DNA of 32,000 nucleotides from Limnohabitans sp. Rim8 (GTDB taxonomy: Bacteria > Pseudomonadota > Gammaproteobacteria > Burkholderiales > Burkholderiaceae_C): NCBI RefSeq assembly GCF_945901045.1, contig NZ_CAMDKK010000014.1; one strand, written 5' to 3'. A program made the position numbers and the translations under genes. Under the pieces are notes generated by a model. It was not told the origin of the DNA and made no database searches. It saw nothing but the letters and a program-made list of their open reading frames with translations. Shown here in pieces: positions 25,814 to 29,339 of this stretch (position 1 is its first letter; each line of letters starts with the position of its first letter).

Positions 25814-25837
25814 ACGGTTTTTCAGCGTCACAAAAAA
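25814..25837 (+). repeat. Copy C (short form) of the conserved island intergenic element
   Basis: ACGGTTTTTCA-GCGTCACAAAAAA shares both blocks with copy A (ACGGTTTTTCA ... GCGTGACAAAAA) but lacks the 13-nt centre. It lies 35 bp inside the island junction. Confidence 0.5.
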
Positions 25838-26046
25838 TTGGTGTGTGCGTTCTGTCATTGTGCGTTTCGCTGCAAACGTGCTGCACTTTTCGAATGGTAT
25901 TTTAACTATACCTGTCATGCGTCTTACCTTCATTTTATAAACACTACATATTTCACGTTAGATACCGCTATTTCAACGTCTTTTTACAGAATTTCAATTA
26001 GCAATAGCGACTCAAGACGCTGCCTAGCACAGCAACACGCTGACAT

Positions 26047-26247
26047 TTAGCGTTGTCGCAATTGCTTCTGCTTGCGTTCGTTTTCACGCTGTTGCCGCTG
26101 TCTTTCTTGTTCTTGCTTCAGTTGCTGCCGGCTTCTATCCACCCCCTGCTTTAGCCCCTGTATTCGTGCTTGCGGTAGTGTCATAGGCGGTTTGGTTTTA
26201 ATGGGTTTTAAGGTAAGTTCAGCAATACGCATCTTGTATTTACGCAT
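26047..26247 (-). CDS. Small, very basic hypothetical protein (about 66 aa, Arg/Gln/Lys-rich C-terminus)
   Basis: ORF 26047..26268; ATG at 26247 is preferred over the GTG at 26268. The RBS is weak and no domain is recognised. The C-terminal QQLKQEQERQRQQRENERKQKQLRQR is low-complexity and coiled-coil-like. Confidence 0.4.
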   Translation of the reverse strand: MRKYKMRIAELTLKPIKTKPPMTLPQARIQGLKQGVDRSRQQLKQEQERQRQQRENERKQKQLRQR

Positions 26248-26263
26248 GCCCTGTTTATGTATC

Positions 26264-26328
26264 AGCACGGTTTTTCACGCACCTTATACAGCGTGACAAA
26301 AACCATGCTTTTCAAAAAACCATACCCC
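26264..26328 (+). repeat. Copy A of the conserved island intergenic element, with an internal imperfect palindrome
   Basis: About 85 % identical by hand alignment to 29226-29290, and weaker similarity continues for about 20 bp. GGTTTTTCACGC (26269-26280) and GCGTGACAAAAACC (26291-26304) form a 13-bp stem with one bulge. Confidence 0.7.
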
Positions 26329-26363
26329 TACACCCTAGCCCATACCCTCAGCCACCCCATAGC

Positions 26364-26804
26364 TCAGCCCCTAAATCCGTCGCGTAATTTGTTAGCAGCG
26401 TTCTCAATAGCCGTGTCCAACTCACCCGCCAACACAACCGTTTTAATCACTTCCAACACACTCACCAAATCTTTGTCCGTGCCTACCTCTACAGCAAACT
26501 TACCCTTTGCCAATTCCAGCACCTTCGTCCCATAACGCACTGACAAACTCAACTTTCCATTGTCAGCAACAAACCACCAAGCCTTCACCCGCTTGTTCAT
26601 TTCCACTTGCTTTCGTAAGCCTGTAGTCTCATCTTTTACGCTGCGGAACTTTATGGGTGCGTAATGTGTTCCCGCTTGCTGTGCTTTTGCCAGTTCCATC
26701 TGTTCCCACAGACGTTTTGCCAATTTGTTGCGACGTTGCTGAACGGGCGGCATCTGCGTTGGCTTTTGTGCCGCTGTCAATTTCAATCCTGTAAGTCCTG
26801 TCAT
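26364..26804 (-). CDS. Hypothetical protein (146 aa), no characterised domain recognised
   Basis: ATG at 26804 is preceded by AAAGGA 7 nt upstream; the track start at 26915 adds 37 implausible residues. It starts MTGLTGLKLTAAQKPTQMPPVQQRRNKLAKRLWEQ.. and looks like a conserved uncharacterised small protein of proteobacterial islands. That is a memory impression only. Confidence 0.65.
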   Translation of the reverse strand: MTGLTGLKLTAAQKPTQMPPVQQRRNKLAKRLWEQMELAKAQQAGTHYAPIKFRSVKDETTGLRKQVEMNKRVKAWWFVADNGKLSLSVRYGTKVLELAKGKFAVEVGTDKDLVSVLEVIKTVVLAGELDTAIENAANKLRDGFRG

Positions 26805-27937
26805 TGCGTTGTCCTTTCTGTGTAGCAATAACGCAACTTTATTTTCAGACCGAACACTTGGACAACCGGAATTATTCCAACTCGTGTCAATCTGCCACAT
26901 GCACCTAACATTCATTCAGTTTTAGCAGCCTTTTATTAGGTCGTTGCTAAATAAAACTGACAGGCAGAGCGAATCACAGTCTCTGTGCTGCCATTTATTA
27001 CTACCGATAACGAGCAGCGTCACTCATTTGCTATGACGCCCAGCAACTGGACAACGGTGTCTCAGGGAAGGATGATTTGAGCGGTAGCAAAGATTTGTCG
27101 AAATCACTTACACAAGTGATGTTATGGTTTGCCACCTATTACAGACAAAGCACACACAACGGCACAAAGATGACAGTCATTACCTGTGCATCACGAGCAA
27201 GCCCTGCCTACACTGCAACTTGCGAACCCTGCGACTGTTGGCACTTCGGCTATCGCAGATGTTGCGTTTCAATAACAGCAGCACATAAAAGGAGACCGCG
27301 AAACCGCCCTTACCGATTTGGTTGTGCTGAAGTGCTGTGGTAAAGAACTCACCAAAAGATTTTTATTCACATCGAGCCTTGTGTTGGCTCGGTGTGGATT
27401 GAATCTACCAAAAGAAAAAATAAACTGCGGAGCAAACGGTGTGAGCGAAAGCGAAACACATGCAAACGCAGTTTGCATCACACTTAACCCAACTATCTTA
27501 AAACCAATACTTCCCAATGACCCCACACTTGTTCTATGGGGTGTTAGAGAAAATCACCAACACCCGAGATCTCAACACCACGCAGAAATTGCAGCCCAAT
27601 TTTTTAGGTATTACTGATGAGATTTTGGCTGCAGCACACAGCAACACATCAAATCAGCCCTACACGCAATTATTTTCTATGTCGTGCTCGCTACGATGCT
27701 GACGCTACCTAGACGCTGCTTGTAGCGTGTTTTAAGCGTTCTGTTCGTTTCGTCGCAGTTCTGCCACGAATCCGTGTAAATACTTCGACATAACAGAATA
27801 CACAAACTGCTTGGACGGTAACGCAACCTATTGATTTTCAACAAATCACTAATACACCGCCAACTTGTCGGGTTTCACTTGTCCAACCAACACCAAAGAC
27901 AACATACTTAATTCACGCAAATTATTAGGAGCACATT

Positions 27938-28510
27938 ATGGCAACAGCAAAATCACTCACAGCGGCAGAACTCCAATCAGTCCTCGCTTACACAGCAACT
28001 CAACCCAACGCTCAACGCAACAGAGCAATGATGATGATGACAGTTGCCGCAGGTTTGCGTGTGGGCGAAGTTGCAGGACTTACACTTGGGGATGTGCTTG
28101 ACAAAAGCGGCAGTGTTCGCGGCGAGGTTTTCCTAGCAGCACATCGCGTCAAACACCAACATGCTCGCACCATTTACCTCAACAGCAGGCTGCAGCAGGA
28201 ATTGACGGATTACATCGCAACAAGGATTCACAAGGACGCTGCATTTCCATTGTTCCCCACACACCGCGGACCACGCTGCCACTTCTCACCCAATACACTT
28301 GCACAGCACTTTCACTTCTTGTATCGCAAGGCTGGCATTAGCAACGCCAGTTCGCATTCTGGACGCAAGACATTTTTAACAAGTCTTGCAAGTCAAGGTG
28401 TTTCGGTGTTCGTTCTTGCATCACTTGCAGGACATAAGAGCATTGCAACCACTCAACGCTACATCATCGTCAATGATGATGTAAAACGGCGTGCAGTTGA
28501 GTTGGTTTGA
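27938..28510 (+). CDS. Short tyrosine recombinase: catalytic domain only, no N-terminal core-binding domain
   Basis: 190 aa with a strong RBS (AGGAG 7 nt upstream). The full catalytic set is readable: R41 (GLRVGE), K72, H140-x-x-R143 (HSGRKT), H166 (AGHKS) and Y175 (TQRYI). The protein begins where catalytic domains normally begin (KSLTAAELQSVL). Confidence 0.85.
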   Translation: MATAKSLTAAELQSVLAYTATQPNAQRNRAMMMMTVAAGLRVGEVAGLTLGDVLDKSGSVRGEVFLAAHRVKHQHARTIYLNSRLQQELTDYIATRIHKDAAFPLFPTHRGPRCHFSPNTLAQHFHFLYRKAGISNASSHSGRKTFLTSLASQGVSVFVLASLAGHKSIATTQRYIIVNDDVKRRAVELV

Positions 28511-28684
28511 TCTTGCTTATTTTTATTTCAATGCAAGCAAAATATCCAACAACTGATTCGGATTGGCAGCACGCTTTGCATCCAACTGCAATCGCACACT
28601 CTTATCTTTAATCGTCAAGTTCAGCACCATTATCGTCAACTTCTTCACATCTTTAACAGCATTACGACATTCGGCATTTATGTT

Positions 28685-29185
28685 TCAGTAGGGCACTTCC
28701 AAGTGTCGCTTTATGTGTTTTTTCTCGTGTAGTTTTTCAAGTTGTGCTTTCGTTGCCTTCAAATCGCAAAAACTCCACATCCAAATCGCACTTTCATAAA
28801 CACCTGCCACTTGTTCTCCAAGTTTCAATGCTTGTATTTTGCGTTGGCTTTCTTTTGGTAGCGCACGCAACGCTTCAATTCCTTCGTCTATGTCCTTGTC
28901 ATTCACTATCAGCGTTGCTTGCATCTTGTCCAACTCCAGAGCAATAGTCCCATTACCAGCATCTACTCCAAGCACCAAGCTCGCAAGTTCTTCAAATCTA
29001 TTAACAAAACTTTCAGCATTTTTTACTTGTGTGTAATAGGGATGCGTTTCGTCATTATCAAACAATGCATAAGCGACTTGGGACGCAAGCAAAGCATTCA
29101 ACTTATCTTTCGCTCTTTCGCGCACAAGCAAAACGCTTTGGTAGGTTTTGGCTGTCTGTTTTGCTATGCGTGTTGCTGTTGTCAT
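28685..29185 (-). CDS. Hypothetical protein (about 166 aa)
   Basis: ORF 28685..29230; ATG at 29185 (MTTATRIAKQ..) is preferred. It is a helical-looking, charged protein with no recognisable motif. It lies downstream of repeat copy B. Confidence 0.55.
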   Translation of the reverse strand: MTTATRIAKQTAKTYQSVLLVRERAKDKLNALLASQVAYALFDNDETHPYYTQVKNAESFVNRFEELASLVLGVDAGNGTIALELDKMQATLIVNDKDIDEGIEALRALPKESQRKIQALKLGEQVAGVYESAIWMWSFCDLKATKAQLEKLHEKKHIKRHLEVPY

Positions 29186-29225
29186 TGTTGTTCCAATCAC
29201 TCTAGTTGCTATAGGTTTAGCAAAA

Positions 29226-29290
29226 AGCACGGTTTTTCACAGCAACTTACACGCATTGACAAAAAACATGCTTTTTAATAAACCATACCC
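29226..29290 (+). repeat. Copy B of the conserved island intergenic element
   Basis: It shares the blocks AGCACGGTTTTTCAC (15/15), GACAAAAA, CATGCTTTT and AAACCATACCC with copy A, in the same order and orientation. Confidence 0.7.
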
Positions 29291-29339
29291 TATTATCCAG
29301 CCCAAAGCCTGCCAAGCCAAAACCCAAGCGGCCTACAGC

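What the first reader, a model, noticed from the sequence alone, without database searches (positions are those of the whole stretch)
25814..29309. Three same-orientation copies of a conserved palindromic intergenic element; two bracket a 3-kb module holding the recombinase
Seen: 26264-26328 and 29226-29290 align at about 85 % identity by hand. The shared blocks are AGCACGGTTTTTCAC, GACAAAAA, CATGCTTTT and AAACCATACCC, and weaker similarity runs about 20 bp further. A short form, ACGGTTTTTCA/GCGTCACAAAAAA, lies at 25814-25837, 35 bp from the island junction. Each copy contains an imperfect inverted repeat with half-site about TGA(C)AAAAACC. In copy A this folds into a 13-bp stem. All copies are intergenic and in the same orientation. 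On the minus strand, copies A and B each sit between the stop of one gene and the start of the next. Copies A and B are direct repeats 2962 bp apart. They enclose the 146-aa gene, the 1.1-kb ORF-poor region, the short tyrosine recombinase and the 166-aa gene. Inference, three alternatives: (a) a duplicated promoter/operator module for a shared island regulator (moron-like units); (b) recombination sites, such as attL/attR of a nested about 3-kb cassette or a resolution site for the adjacent recombinase; (c) a transcription-attenuating hairpin. I could not fit a canonical sigma-70 -35/-10 pair to the conserved blocks.
Basis: partly seen in the sequence, partly recalled or inferred. Interest (0 to 1): 0.7.

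Follow-up and report, generated by a model that had tools for sequence, protein, structure and literature searches.

The report
Conserved hairpin pair flanking island recombinase module
Two of the three reported repeats are real copies of a roughly 77-bp palindromic hairpin that always occupies the same two positions in a family of small tRNA-integrated islands of freshwater bacteria, and it looks like a specialised transcription terminator or insulator, not a recombination site.

Summary
Copies A (26252-26328) and B (29214-29291) are real and homologous (55/65 identical; family-profile E of about 1e-20). The "short form" at 25814-25837 is not a member. It lies in a separate conserved block next to the island's attR.

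The window holds one end of an 8.2-kb island integrated at tRNA-Lys. Related islands are common in Limnohabitans and other freshwater Burkholderiales. I found 88 element copies in about 70 contigs:
- 35 lie between a small gene and the 3' end of DUF6641.
- 44 lie between the short recombinase (with or without cargo such as p166) and the 3' end of a 201-aa gene (p201). Four more at contig ends fit this position.
- Five are partial copies.
- None lies anywhere else, and none is a deletion or circle junction.

The element is a long imperfect palindrome, GGTTTA..AAGCACGGTTTTT-(22-23 nt)-AAAAACCGTGCTT..TAAACC. The arms are 93-96% identical across islands. Each stem is followed by a U-run: on the + strand in both copies, and on the - strand mainly in the right copy.

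The right copy tracks p201, not the recombinase. More than half of the recombinase modules have no element.

Best reading: a polar or bidirectional terminator/insulator hairpin, probably read by an island factor. The att/res reading is disfavoured, and an operator role is not excluded.

The parts
26252..26328 (.). It has the outer GTTTA (26253-57), the left arm AGCACGGTTTTT (26264-75), a 22-nt central region, the right arm AAAAACCATGCT and the tail TTTCAAAAAACCATACCCC. It lies between the DUF6641 stop (26364) and the small-gene start (26232).
29214..29291 (.). It lies 48 bp past the p201 stop (29340) and 29 bp upstream of the p166 start (29185). Flanking A5 and T5 runs give U-runs on both strands.
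25814..25850 (.). It is not a member of the element family. It belongs to a conserved attR-proximal block (ACGKTTTTTCAGCGT..AAAAARTGGTGTGYGCG) that tRNA-Lys islands share.
25735..25780 (-). attR: a 46-nt duplicate of the 3' part of tRNA-Lys(UUU). The intact tRNA and the 422-aa integrase lie beyond the window end, at L001 15992-16067 and 14611-15879.
26047..26232 (-). Small basic 61-aa gene (small61), immediately downstream of the left copy on the sense strand.
26364..26804 (-). DUF6641 protein (146 aa). Its 3' end abuts the left copy.
26805..27937 (.). Conserved non-coding region between the divergent DUF6641 and recombinase genes. It holds a Polynucleobacter-1 RNA (RF01718) at 27012-27109 on the + strand.
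27938..28510 (+). 190-aa tyrosine recombinase made of the catalytic domain only (Rec190). The R-K-HxxR-H-Y residues are all present.
28685..29185 (-). p166, a gene in the variable cargo slot between the recombinase stop and the right copy.
29340..29945 (-). p201, an uncharacterised all-helical 201-aa protein. The right copy follows its 3' end in nearly every island examined.
30000..30260 (-). p86, a Lys/Ala-rich small protein that usually precedes p201.

Best explanation
The element is a conserved hairpin of about 77 bp, specific to one island family. It sits at two fixed places in small tRNA-integrated islands of freshwater Burkholderiales: just past the 3' end of p201 (right copy) and just past the 3' end of DUF6641 (left copy). 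Together the two copies bracket the divergent DUF6641 / non-coding RNA region / short-recombinase module.

I propose that it acts on transcripts as an intrinsic terminator or insulator.
- On the + strand, both copies stop transcription just before it would run antisense into DUF6641 or p201. At the right copy this also ends the recombinase mRNA.
- On the - strand, the right copy also ends the p86-p201 transcript, so it is a bidirectional terminator between convergent genes.
- The left copy has lost its - strand U-run. DUF6641 transcripts can therefore read through to the small gene, whose ribosome-binding site directly abuts the hairpin base.

The anatomy, positions, strand-specific U-runs and pairing are shown. 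Termination itself is inferred. I also infer that the near-invariant arm sequence reflects recognition by a specific factor. p201 is the best candidate because the right copy follows it in nearly every island.
For: **Fixed positions.** Of 88 copies, 35 are small61|EL|DUF6641, 44 are Rec190-or-p166|EL|p201, 4 lie at contig ends consistent with the right position, and 5 are partial. None lies elsewhere.

**Distance from the upstream genes.** Each copy lies 11-28 bp beyond the DUF6641 homology, or at least 41 bp beyond the p201 homology.

**Stable hairpins.** Folding energies are -19 to -37 kcal/mol, with z-scores of -2.6 to -6.8.

**U-runs after the stem.**
- + strand: 4-5 U in 65/67 unique copies.
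- - strand: 4-5 U in 27/39 right copies but only 4/28 left copies.

**Pairing is maintained.**
- Symmetric double changes occur in both arms: GCAGGG/CCCTGC in L101_R and L080_R, plus L079_R, L073_L and the diverged L108 copy.
- The central spacers are more self-complementary than shuffles: 55-58% have p<=0.2 against 20% expected.

**Ordinary hairpins fill the same slot elsewhere.** Element-less relatives have unrelated small hairpins right after the recombinase stop.

**Link to p201.**
- The right copy is present in all 5 p201-selected loci.
- It is present in 6 of 8 p201-bearing genomes; a seventh keeps a truncated remnant.
- It is absent from the roughly 18 genomes without p201 that have enough flank to judge.

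**Ancient position-specific paralogues.** Central regions are 61% identical among left copies, 56% among right copies, and 39% between left and right, including within one island.
Against: - The arms are 93-96% identical across islands whose proteins have diverged to 45-85% identity. A plain terminator does not need that much sequence constraint.
- Covariation in the main stem is sparse: 1 of 13 alifold pairs shows double changes.
- The stem top is A-U rich and the apical region is long (22-23 nt), which is atypical for intrinsic terminators. The built-in terminator scan did not call either copy.
- Half copies (right arm plus tail) persist or are duplicated in some islands (L034, L037, the L100 group, L108). 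This hints that part of the sequence functions outside the hairpin.
- No transcript data are available.
Confidence: 0.45

Rival explanations
1. The element is a double-stranded DNA binding site: an operator or architectural site made of two inverted 13-bp half-sites, AAGCACGGTTTTT. An island protein (p201, p86, small61, or the integrase or its directionality factor) binds it to control small61, the cargo-slot genes or the recombinase module.
For: - The arm sequence is nearly invariant with little covariation.
- The spacer length is tightly held at 22-23 nt.
- The element co-occurs strictly with p201, and the left copy is lost together with p201 in L004-type islands.
- Half copies are retained or duplicated.
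- GCACGG-type and TGAAAA-type motifs recur in the attR-proximal region.
Against: - No conserved -35/-10 pair can be placed on either strand (alignment).
- In L020-, L023- and L072-type islands the right copy abuts the recombinase stop, so it has no gene to regulate.
- The arm centres are about 35 bp apart, which is long for a simple dimer.
- The spacer is itself self-complementary, and symmetric arm changes keep pairing.
- p201 has no recognisable DNA-binding fold and no PDB or Pfam match.
Confidence: 0.25
2. The element is a recombination site. Either it forms attL/attR-like or resolution sites for the short recombinase, or it is a folded-hairpin site (like attC or the CTX-phage attP) at which the module or the cargo slot is exchanged between islands.
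For: - Direct repeats bracket the recombinase module in every complete island that has them.
- The hairpin architecture resembles folded-ssDNA sites.
- A variable cargo slot of 0-1040 bp lies exactly between the recombinase stop and the GGTTTA left edge.
- The recombinase's last codons often read GGTTTGA or GGTTTAA, and in L072 they form the element's outer stem.
- Mosaic breakpoints fall at the element's edges: L057 against L072, the window against L003, and clustered alignment ends.
Against: - No solo site (small61|EL|p201) or circle junction (Rec190|EL|DUF6641) appears among 88 copies, although the search pattern would have matched hybrids.
- The central regions of the left and right copies are only 39% identical within an island, with no homogenisation. 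This is incompatible with a shared crossover region.
- Among the 39 protein-retrieved loci from genome and metagenome assemblies, most that carry the Rec190 module have no element. The element follows p201 instead.
- The arm spacing of 22-23 nt is unlike the 6-8 bp of Xer, Cre or FLP sites.
- The polarity of GGTTTA...TAAACC is the reverse of the attC RYYYAAC...GTTRRRY.
- Breakpoints at the most conserved stretch are also what ordinary homologous recombination would produce.
Confidence: 0.12
3. The element is a selfish dispersed repeat (REP, MITE or Correia-like) that happens to have landed twice in this island.
For: - It has a palindromic structure and an intergenic position.
- The left copy looks like a roughly 100-bp insertion relative to L004-type islands.
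Against: - All 88 copies from genomes and metagenomes lie at the same two positions of one island family.
- A context-blind pattern scan of 241 million metagenome records found none elsewhere.
- There are no other copies in the 32-kb window or the 20-kb L001.
- No target-site duplication is seen.
- The left and right copies are old, position-specific lineages.
Confidence: 0.03

Closest known systems
Bidirectional intrinsic (Rho-independent) terminators between convergent genes
   Same: - It is a hairpin flanked by an A-run and a T-run, which gives a U-run after the stem on both strands (right copy).
- It sits between the convergent recombinase and p201 genes.
- Unrelated small hairpins occupy the same slot in element-less relatives.
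   Different: - The arm sequence is almost invariant over large divergence.
- The hairpin is long (about 30 potential pairs), with an A-U-rich upper stem and a 22-23-nt variable apex.
- A second copy sits inside an operon, between DUF6641 and the small gene.
- It co-occurs strictly with one protein family (p201).
Integron attC sites and the folded attP of CTX phage (tyrosine-recombinase sites formed by ssDNA hairpins)
   Same: - It is an imperfect palindrome with conserved outer parts and a variable centre.
- It lies at the 3' end of genes and always in one orientation.
- A tyrosine recombinase gene is nearby, and a variable gene slot is adjacent.
   Different: - There is no IntI-type integrase; Rec190 is a 190-aa catalytic domain.
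- The core-site consensus and its polarity differ.
- There are only two fixed sites rather than one per cassette.
- No recombinant junctions are seen.
- The recombinase occurs widely without the element.
REP/BIME, Correia and other small dispersed palindromic repeats
   Same: - It is a short intergenic palindrome downstream of genes.
- It could stabilise or terminate the upstream mRNA.
   Different: It is not dispersed. It occupies two fixed positions in one island family and shows no sign of transposition.
Phage lambda nutL/nutR and P4 seqA/seqC (duplicated cis-RNA sites controlling termination in mobile elements)
   Same: - Two copies of one short structured sequence sit in different transcription units of a small integrative element.
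- A role in read-through versus termination is possible.
- A small Arg-rich protein gene (small61) lies next to one copy.
   Different: - The resemblance rests on my recall only.
- No N-like or CI-RNA-like partner was identified.
- The boxA-like stretch (GUGCUUUUUAAUAA) is on the strand antisense to the flanking operons.

Membership tests
Intrinsic (Rho-independent) terminator | A stable hairpin immediately followed by a U-run on the transcribed strand | tested here: met
   Folding energies are -19 to -37 kcal/mol. A 4-5 U run follows the stem on the + strand in 65/67 copies. On the - strand it follows in 27/39 right copies and 4/28 left copies. The simple scanner missed the copies because the apex exceeds its loop limit.
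Intrinsic (Rho-independent) terminator | RNA 3' ends form at the site, or downstream transcription is reduced | not testable with these tools
   There are no transcriptome data for these metagenome or isolate sequences.
attL/attR or res sites of a nested element served by the adjacent tyrosine recombinase | A shared identical crossover (core) region in the two copies | tested here: not met
   The central regions of the left and right copies are 39% identical, including within the same island (n=17). Only the arms are shared.
attL/attR or res sites of a nested element served by the adjacent tyrosine recombinase | Recombination products exist (a solo site after excision, or a circle junction) | tested here: not met
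   0 of 88 copies is small61|EL|p201 or Rec190|EL|DUF6641. The search pattern needed only the two arms.
attL/attR or res sites of a nested element served by the adjacent tyrosine recombinase | The recombinase and its sites co-occur | tested here: not met
   Most protein-retrieved genomes with the DUF6641-Rec190 module lack any element (L004-8, L015, L017-19, L021, L022, L026-31, L033, L035, L036).
Integron attC | R''/R' core sites RYYYAAC ... GTTRRRY, with an IntI-type integrase nearby | tested here: not met
   The outer motifs are GGTTTA ... TAAACC, the opposite polarity. Rec190 is 190 aa, and its hits to integron-integrase models score 15-28 bits against cut-offs of 265-435.
Xer/dif-, lox- or FRT-type core site | Two inverted binding arms of 11-13 bp separated by 6-8 bp | tested here: not met
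   The arms are separated by 22-23 nt in 60/67 copies, with a range of 18-24.
REP/MITE-type dispersed repeat | Many copies in unrelated genomic contexts | tested here: not met
   All copies lie in two contexts, and none lies elsewhere in the window or L001.
Sigma-70 promoter with operator | Conserved -35 and -10 hexamers at 16-18 bp spacing, upstream of a gene | tested here: inconclusive
   The scanner finds no pair inside the conserved blocks. Hand inspection of 67 aligned copies finds TTGRCA-like and TTGAAA-like -35 candidates but no conserved -10. In several islands no gene follows the right copy.
Described RNA families (Rfam 15) | A match to a curated covariance model | tested here: not met
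   cmscan of 25600-32000 at E<=1 lists only Polynucleobacter-1 (27012-27109) and a sub-threshold OmrA-B hit. Nothing matches at the element.
fim-type invertible switch served by a short tyrosine invertase | A segment between inverted repeats is found in both orientations | tested here: not met
   All 79 alignments of the central region, across 52 loci, are co-linear with the recombinase. The two element copies are direct repeats.

The most novel reading that the evidence does not exclude
The hairpins are the cis-acting sites of an undescribed island-encoded system. The uncharacterised p201 protein, possibly together with the DNA-binding-domain-less recombinase, recognises the folded element as RNA or single-stranded DNA. 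That recognition either gates expression of the DUF6641 / Polynucleobacter-1 RNA / recombinase module or mediates exchange of genes in the cargo slot that abuts the element's GGTTTA edge.
Probability: 0.15. Interest if true: 0.75.

Novelty: new variant of a known kind. Interest (0 to 1): 0.45.

Why it matters
The element is a sharply conserved landmark of a very abundant but undescribed family of roughly 6-9-kb tRNA-integrated islands in freshwater Burkholderiales (Limnohabitans, Rhodoferax, Polaromonas). These islands carry thousands of copies of a catalytic-domain-only tyrosine recombinase, a DUF6641 protein and a long conserved non-coding region.

That non-coding region holds the orphan Rfam motif Polynucleobacter-1, whose genomic context has been unexplained since 2010. 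Knowing that the palindrome marks the module's borders gives concrete handles for experiments on how these islands are expressed and reshuffled:
- It tracks p201, not the recombinase.
- It has strand-specific terminator features.
- A variable cargo slot lies at its edge.

If the hairpin is only a terminator, the finding is ordinary. If a protein reads it, it defines a new cis/trans pair.

Tried and rejected
1. **Copy C as a true third copy: rejected.** The profile does not detect it, and it belongs to a separate conserved attR-proximal block.
2. **Guide-like complementarity between the element (arms or variable centre) and the 1.1-1.5-kb non-coding region: none found.** Only chance-level 8-12-mers matched in 27 islands. 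The exception was one arm fragment in L034.
3. **An invertible central region (fim-like): no inversions** in 79 alignments.
4. **General hypervariability next to the element: not supported.** Only the window/L003 pair shows a patch, and other close pairs do not.
5. **Identity of p201: none obtained.** There is no Pfam, NCBIfam, PHROG-function, PADLOC or PDB sequence match. The AF2 model (pLDDT 78) is all-helical with no Foldseek PDB match at E<=0.001. p201 is absent from the phage and plasmid collections.
6. **Sigma-54 reading of the right arm (TGGCAAAAACCGTGCT): rejected.** The window's own copies, and about a quarter of all copies, read TGAC, and the promoter would fire antisense into p201 or DUF6641.
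7. **A mini-ORF (ATGGTTTATTAA) in the tail: not conserved.** Many right copies read ACGG.
8. **Literature searches** for DUF6641, for Polynucleobacter-1 context and for RNA-guided tyrosine recombinases gave nothing relevant beyond Weinberg et al. 2010.
9. **One lookup failed:** P0081 is not on record.

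
Full report
**Observation**

The two long copies are real.
- The repeat finder links 26253-26327 with 29215-29290 at a spacing of 2962-2963 bp.
- MAFFT aligns them with 55 of 65 identical positions and one gap.
- The 24-nt block CATGCTTTTNAAWAAACCATACCC occurs only at these two places in the window, with zero matches expected in shuffles.
- A profile built from copies in other islands finds only 26252-26327 (E=1e-20) and 29214-29291 (E=8e-20) in the whole 32 kb, even at E<=10.

The third "short form" (25814-25837) shares the exact 11-mer ACGGTTTTTCA, but the profile does not detect it. 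It lacks the right arm, the tail and the outer stem.

**Where the window comes from**

The recombinase gene is found on an ENA metagenome contig of 182 kb (L001 coordinate = window coordinate - 17937). In L001 the low-GC segment runs from a 46-nt duplicate of the 3' part of tRNA-Lys(UUU) (window 25735-25780) to the intact tRNA at L001 15992-16067. A 422-aa integrase lies next to that tRNA. The window therefore holds the attR end of an 8.2-kb integrated island.

On the minus strand, the gene order is:
- tRNA, Int422 and lipoprotein cargo, with two integrase C-terminal remnants
- p86, then p201
- the right copy
- p166
- the 190-aa recombinase, on the opposite strand
- 1.1 kb of non-coding DNA
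- DUF6641
- the left copy
- a 61-aa basic protein (small61)
- attR

**The family**

The recombinase has 2104 homologues at E<=1e-10. Nearly all are 190 aa and have a complete R-K-HxxR-H-Y set. They align only to the catalytic domain of XerA and XerD.

I collected related sequences in four ways:
- Protein-based retrieval from one genome per species gave 46 loci. Most come from Limnohabitans, Rhodoferax, Polaromonas and other freshwater Burkholderiales.
- A context-blind scan of JGI metagenomes, using a pattern that requires only the two arms, gave 48 contigs.
- One IMG/VR contig came from an earlier pattern scan.
- Five loci were selected through p201 homologues.

Annotation of all loci with the island proteins, tRNAs and an element profile shows a constant architecture at tRNA-Lys, tRNA-Met or tRNA-Phe.

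**Distribution of the element**

Across all these loci I found 88 copies:

| Position | Copies |
|---|---|
| small61 \| element \| DUF6641 (left) | 35 |
| Rec190 or p166 \| element \| p201 (right) | 44 |
| Contig ends consistent with the right position | 4 |
| Partial extra copies | 5 |
| Any other context | 0 |
| Solo deletion product or circle junction | 0 |

Three points follow from the protein-retrieved, unbiased genome set and the p201-selected loci.
- The right copy tracks p201. It is present in 6 of 8 genomes with p201; L037 keeps a truncated remnant and L025 has none. It is present in none of the roughly 18 genomes without p201 that have enough flank to judge. All five p201-selected loci carry it.
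- The left copy mostly accompanies the right copy. In L004-type islands, which lack p86-p201, DUF6641 is followed directly by the small gene, and the left copy appears as a clean gap of about 100 bp in the alignment.
- More than half of the recombinase modules have no element, so the recombinase does not depend on it.

**Anatomy**

Sixty-seven unique copies align to this consensus:

GGTTTA-n-CAAAAAGCACGGTTTTTCAC-(variable)-TGGCAAAAACCGTGCTTTTYAATAAACCRTACCCT

- The whole element is one long imperfect palindrome. It has an outer stem GGTTTA/TAAACC, a main stem AAGCACGGTTTTT/AAAAACCGTGCTT, a CAC/GTG extension and a variable apex.
- The arms are 93-96% identical across all copies.
- The centre is 61% identical among left copies, 56% among right copies, and only 39% between left and right, even within one island. 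The two copies are therefore old, position-specific paralogues that are not homogenised.
- The distance between the T5 and A5 runs is 22-23 nt in 60 of 67 copies.
- Pairing is maintained. Symmetric double changes occur in L101_R, L080_R, L079_R, L073_L and the diverged L108 copy. The central spacers are more self-complementary than shuffles. Covariation in the main stem is sparse, though, because the stem hardly varies.
- The consensus fold is more favourable on the minus strand, which is the sense strand of p201 and DUF6641.

**Terminator features**

| Strand | Copies | 4-5 U run directly after the stem |
|---|---|---|
| + | all unique copies | 65 of 67 |
| - | right copies | 27 of 39 |
| - | left copies | 4 of 28 |

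(All counts.)

This asymmetry makes functional sense. The right copy lies between the convergent recombinase and p201 genes. In many islands it starts 8-14 bp after the recombinase stop, and in L072 it overlaps that stop codon. The left copy lies inside the DUF6641-to-small61 unit, with the small gene's Shine-Dalgarno sequence directly abutting the hairpin base.

In element-less relatives, unrelated ordinary hairpins follow the recombinase stop.

**Best explanation**

I conclude that the element most likely acts as a polar (left copy) or bidirectional (right copy) terminator/insulator. It shields DUF6641 and p201 from antisense transcription, and at the right copy it ends the convergent transcripts. 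This reading has two weaknesses. The arm sequence is far more constrained than a terminator needs, and half copies (right arm plus tail) are retained or duplicated in several lineages. Both point to a sequence-specific reader. p201 is the best candidate because it co-occurs with the element, but it has no recognisable fold or family.

**Rival explanations**

*A duplex operator.* This is not excluded. It has three problems. There is no conserved promoter. In several islands there is no downstream gene at the right copy. The half-sites are about 35 bp apart.

*A recombination site.* This reading has some attractions:
- The copies bracket the module.
- A variable cargo slot of 0-1040 bp lies between the recombinase stop and the GGTTTA edge.
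- Mosaic breakpoints fall at the element's edges.

The evidence against it is stronger:
- No recombinant junctions were found.
- The left and right centres are unrelated.
- The spacing is wrong for known tyrosine-recombinase cores, and the polarity is wrong for attC.
- The recombinase is independent of the element.
- Breakpoints at the best-conserved stretch are what ordinary homologous recombination would also produce.

*A dispersed REP or MITE.* The strict two-position distribution excludes this as far as I could test.

**Copy C**

In other tRNA-Lys islands the position about 35 bp inside attR reads AACGTTTTTCAGCGTGGATAAAAAGTGGTGTGCGAG. tRNA-Phe islands share the CAGCGT..AAAAGTGGGGTGTGCG part of that sequence.

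Weak arm-like motifs (AAACCGTGCTTTT-like) recur between small61 and attR in several islands, including element-less ones, above shuffle expectation. A shared short protein-binding motif cannot be ruled out, but copy C is not a copy of the element.

**Context worth noting**

The "ORF-poor" 1.1 kb contains a Polynucleobacter-1 RNA (RF01718; 47.6 bits against a gathering score of 37). The same motif lies at the same relative place in L004, L017, L021 and L027, with scores up to 92 bits. This ties that orphan motif (Weinberg et al. 2010, PMC2864571) to the DUF6641 / short-recombinase module.

**Verdict**

- The element is a new, family-specific variant of a known kind: a conserved terminator-like palindrome in a mobile element.
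- It is of moderate interest by itself. Interest would rise if a protein reader or a role in cargo exchange were shown.

Noticed in passing
window 27012-27109 (+); also L004 1067-1164, L017 4278-4376, L021 1403-1537, L027 2732-2869: The orphan Rfam motif Polynucleobacter-1 (RF01718) sits in the conserved non-coding region between DUF6641 and the 190-aa recombinase. It is always on the recombinase strand, about 215 nt from the DUF6641 start and 810-870 nt upstream of the recombinase start. It is present in 5 of 11 modules tested. In the others the middle of the region is replaced by different sequence.
   Followed up: partly
window 27938-28510 (+): The tyrosine recombinase consists of the catalytic domain only (190 aa, no core-binding domain, full R-K-HxxR-H-Y set). 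It has more than 2000 near-full-length homologues in freshwater metagenomes. It is almost always paired divergently with DUF6641 across a non-coding region of 1.1-1.5 kb. Its substrate is unknown, and no inversion of the intervening region was seen.
   Followed up: partly
window 26313-26403: Between the window and the near-identical contig L003 (3213 aligned bases), 21 of the 22 differences fall in this 90-bp stretch. It starts right after the right arm of copy A and runs into the 3' end of DUF6641. This is a short recombination patch anchored at the element. Other close pairs do not show it.
   Followed up: yes
window 28508-29219 and homologous positions in other loci: A variable cargo slot of 0-1040 bp (p166 or other small ORFs) lies between the recombinase stop and the element's GGTTTA edge. 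The recombinase's last codons often read GGTTTGA or GGTTTAA, mimicking that edge, and in L072 the stop codon lies inside the element. L057 and L072 share 91% identity starting exactly at GTTTA, with unrelated left flanks.
   Followed up: partly
window 30856-31002 (-) and L001 14325-14582 (-): Two remnants of integrase C-termini (64-67% identical to the island's Int422) lie inside the island. This suggests decayed tandem integrations at the same tRNA. Intact tandem islands are seen in L012, L034, L058, L071, L073 and L104.
   Followed up: no
L100 4714-4748 (also L058, L095, L099, L103); L108 6641-6706; L034 ~3375-3405; L037 ~1735-1765: Half copies of the element (right arm plus tail, GGCAAAAACCGTGCTTTTCAATAAACCGTACCCT) occur as extra tandem duplicates next to the right copy, or as the only remnant. 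They are followed by CCAAACC-rich low-complexity sequence.
   Followed up: partly
window 25782-26046 and homologous small61-attR intervals: The interval between the small gene and attR is conserved across island types, including element-less ones. Shared blocks include AGGTATAGT(G/T)AAAAT and CAGCGT..AAAAGTGGGGTGTGCG, and arm-like AAACCGTGCTTTT motifs occur above shuffle expectation. These are probably the att arm-type protein-binding sites.
   Followed up: partly
L014 (CALQKH020000010.1), L021, L039, L041, L046: Several loci that carry this Burkholderiales-type island are labelled as MAGs of Akkermansia, Haliscomenobacter, Bacillota, actinobacterium or Bacteroidetes. This most likely reflects mis-binning of island contigs.
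   Followed up: no
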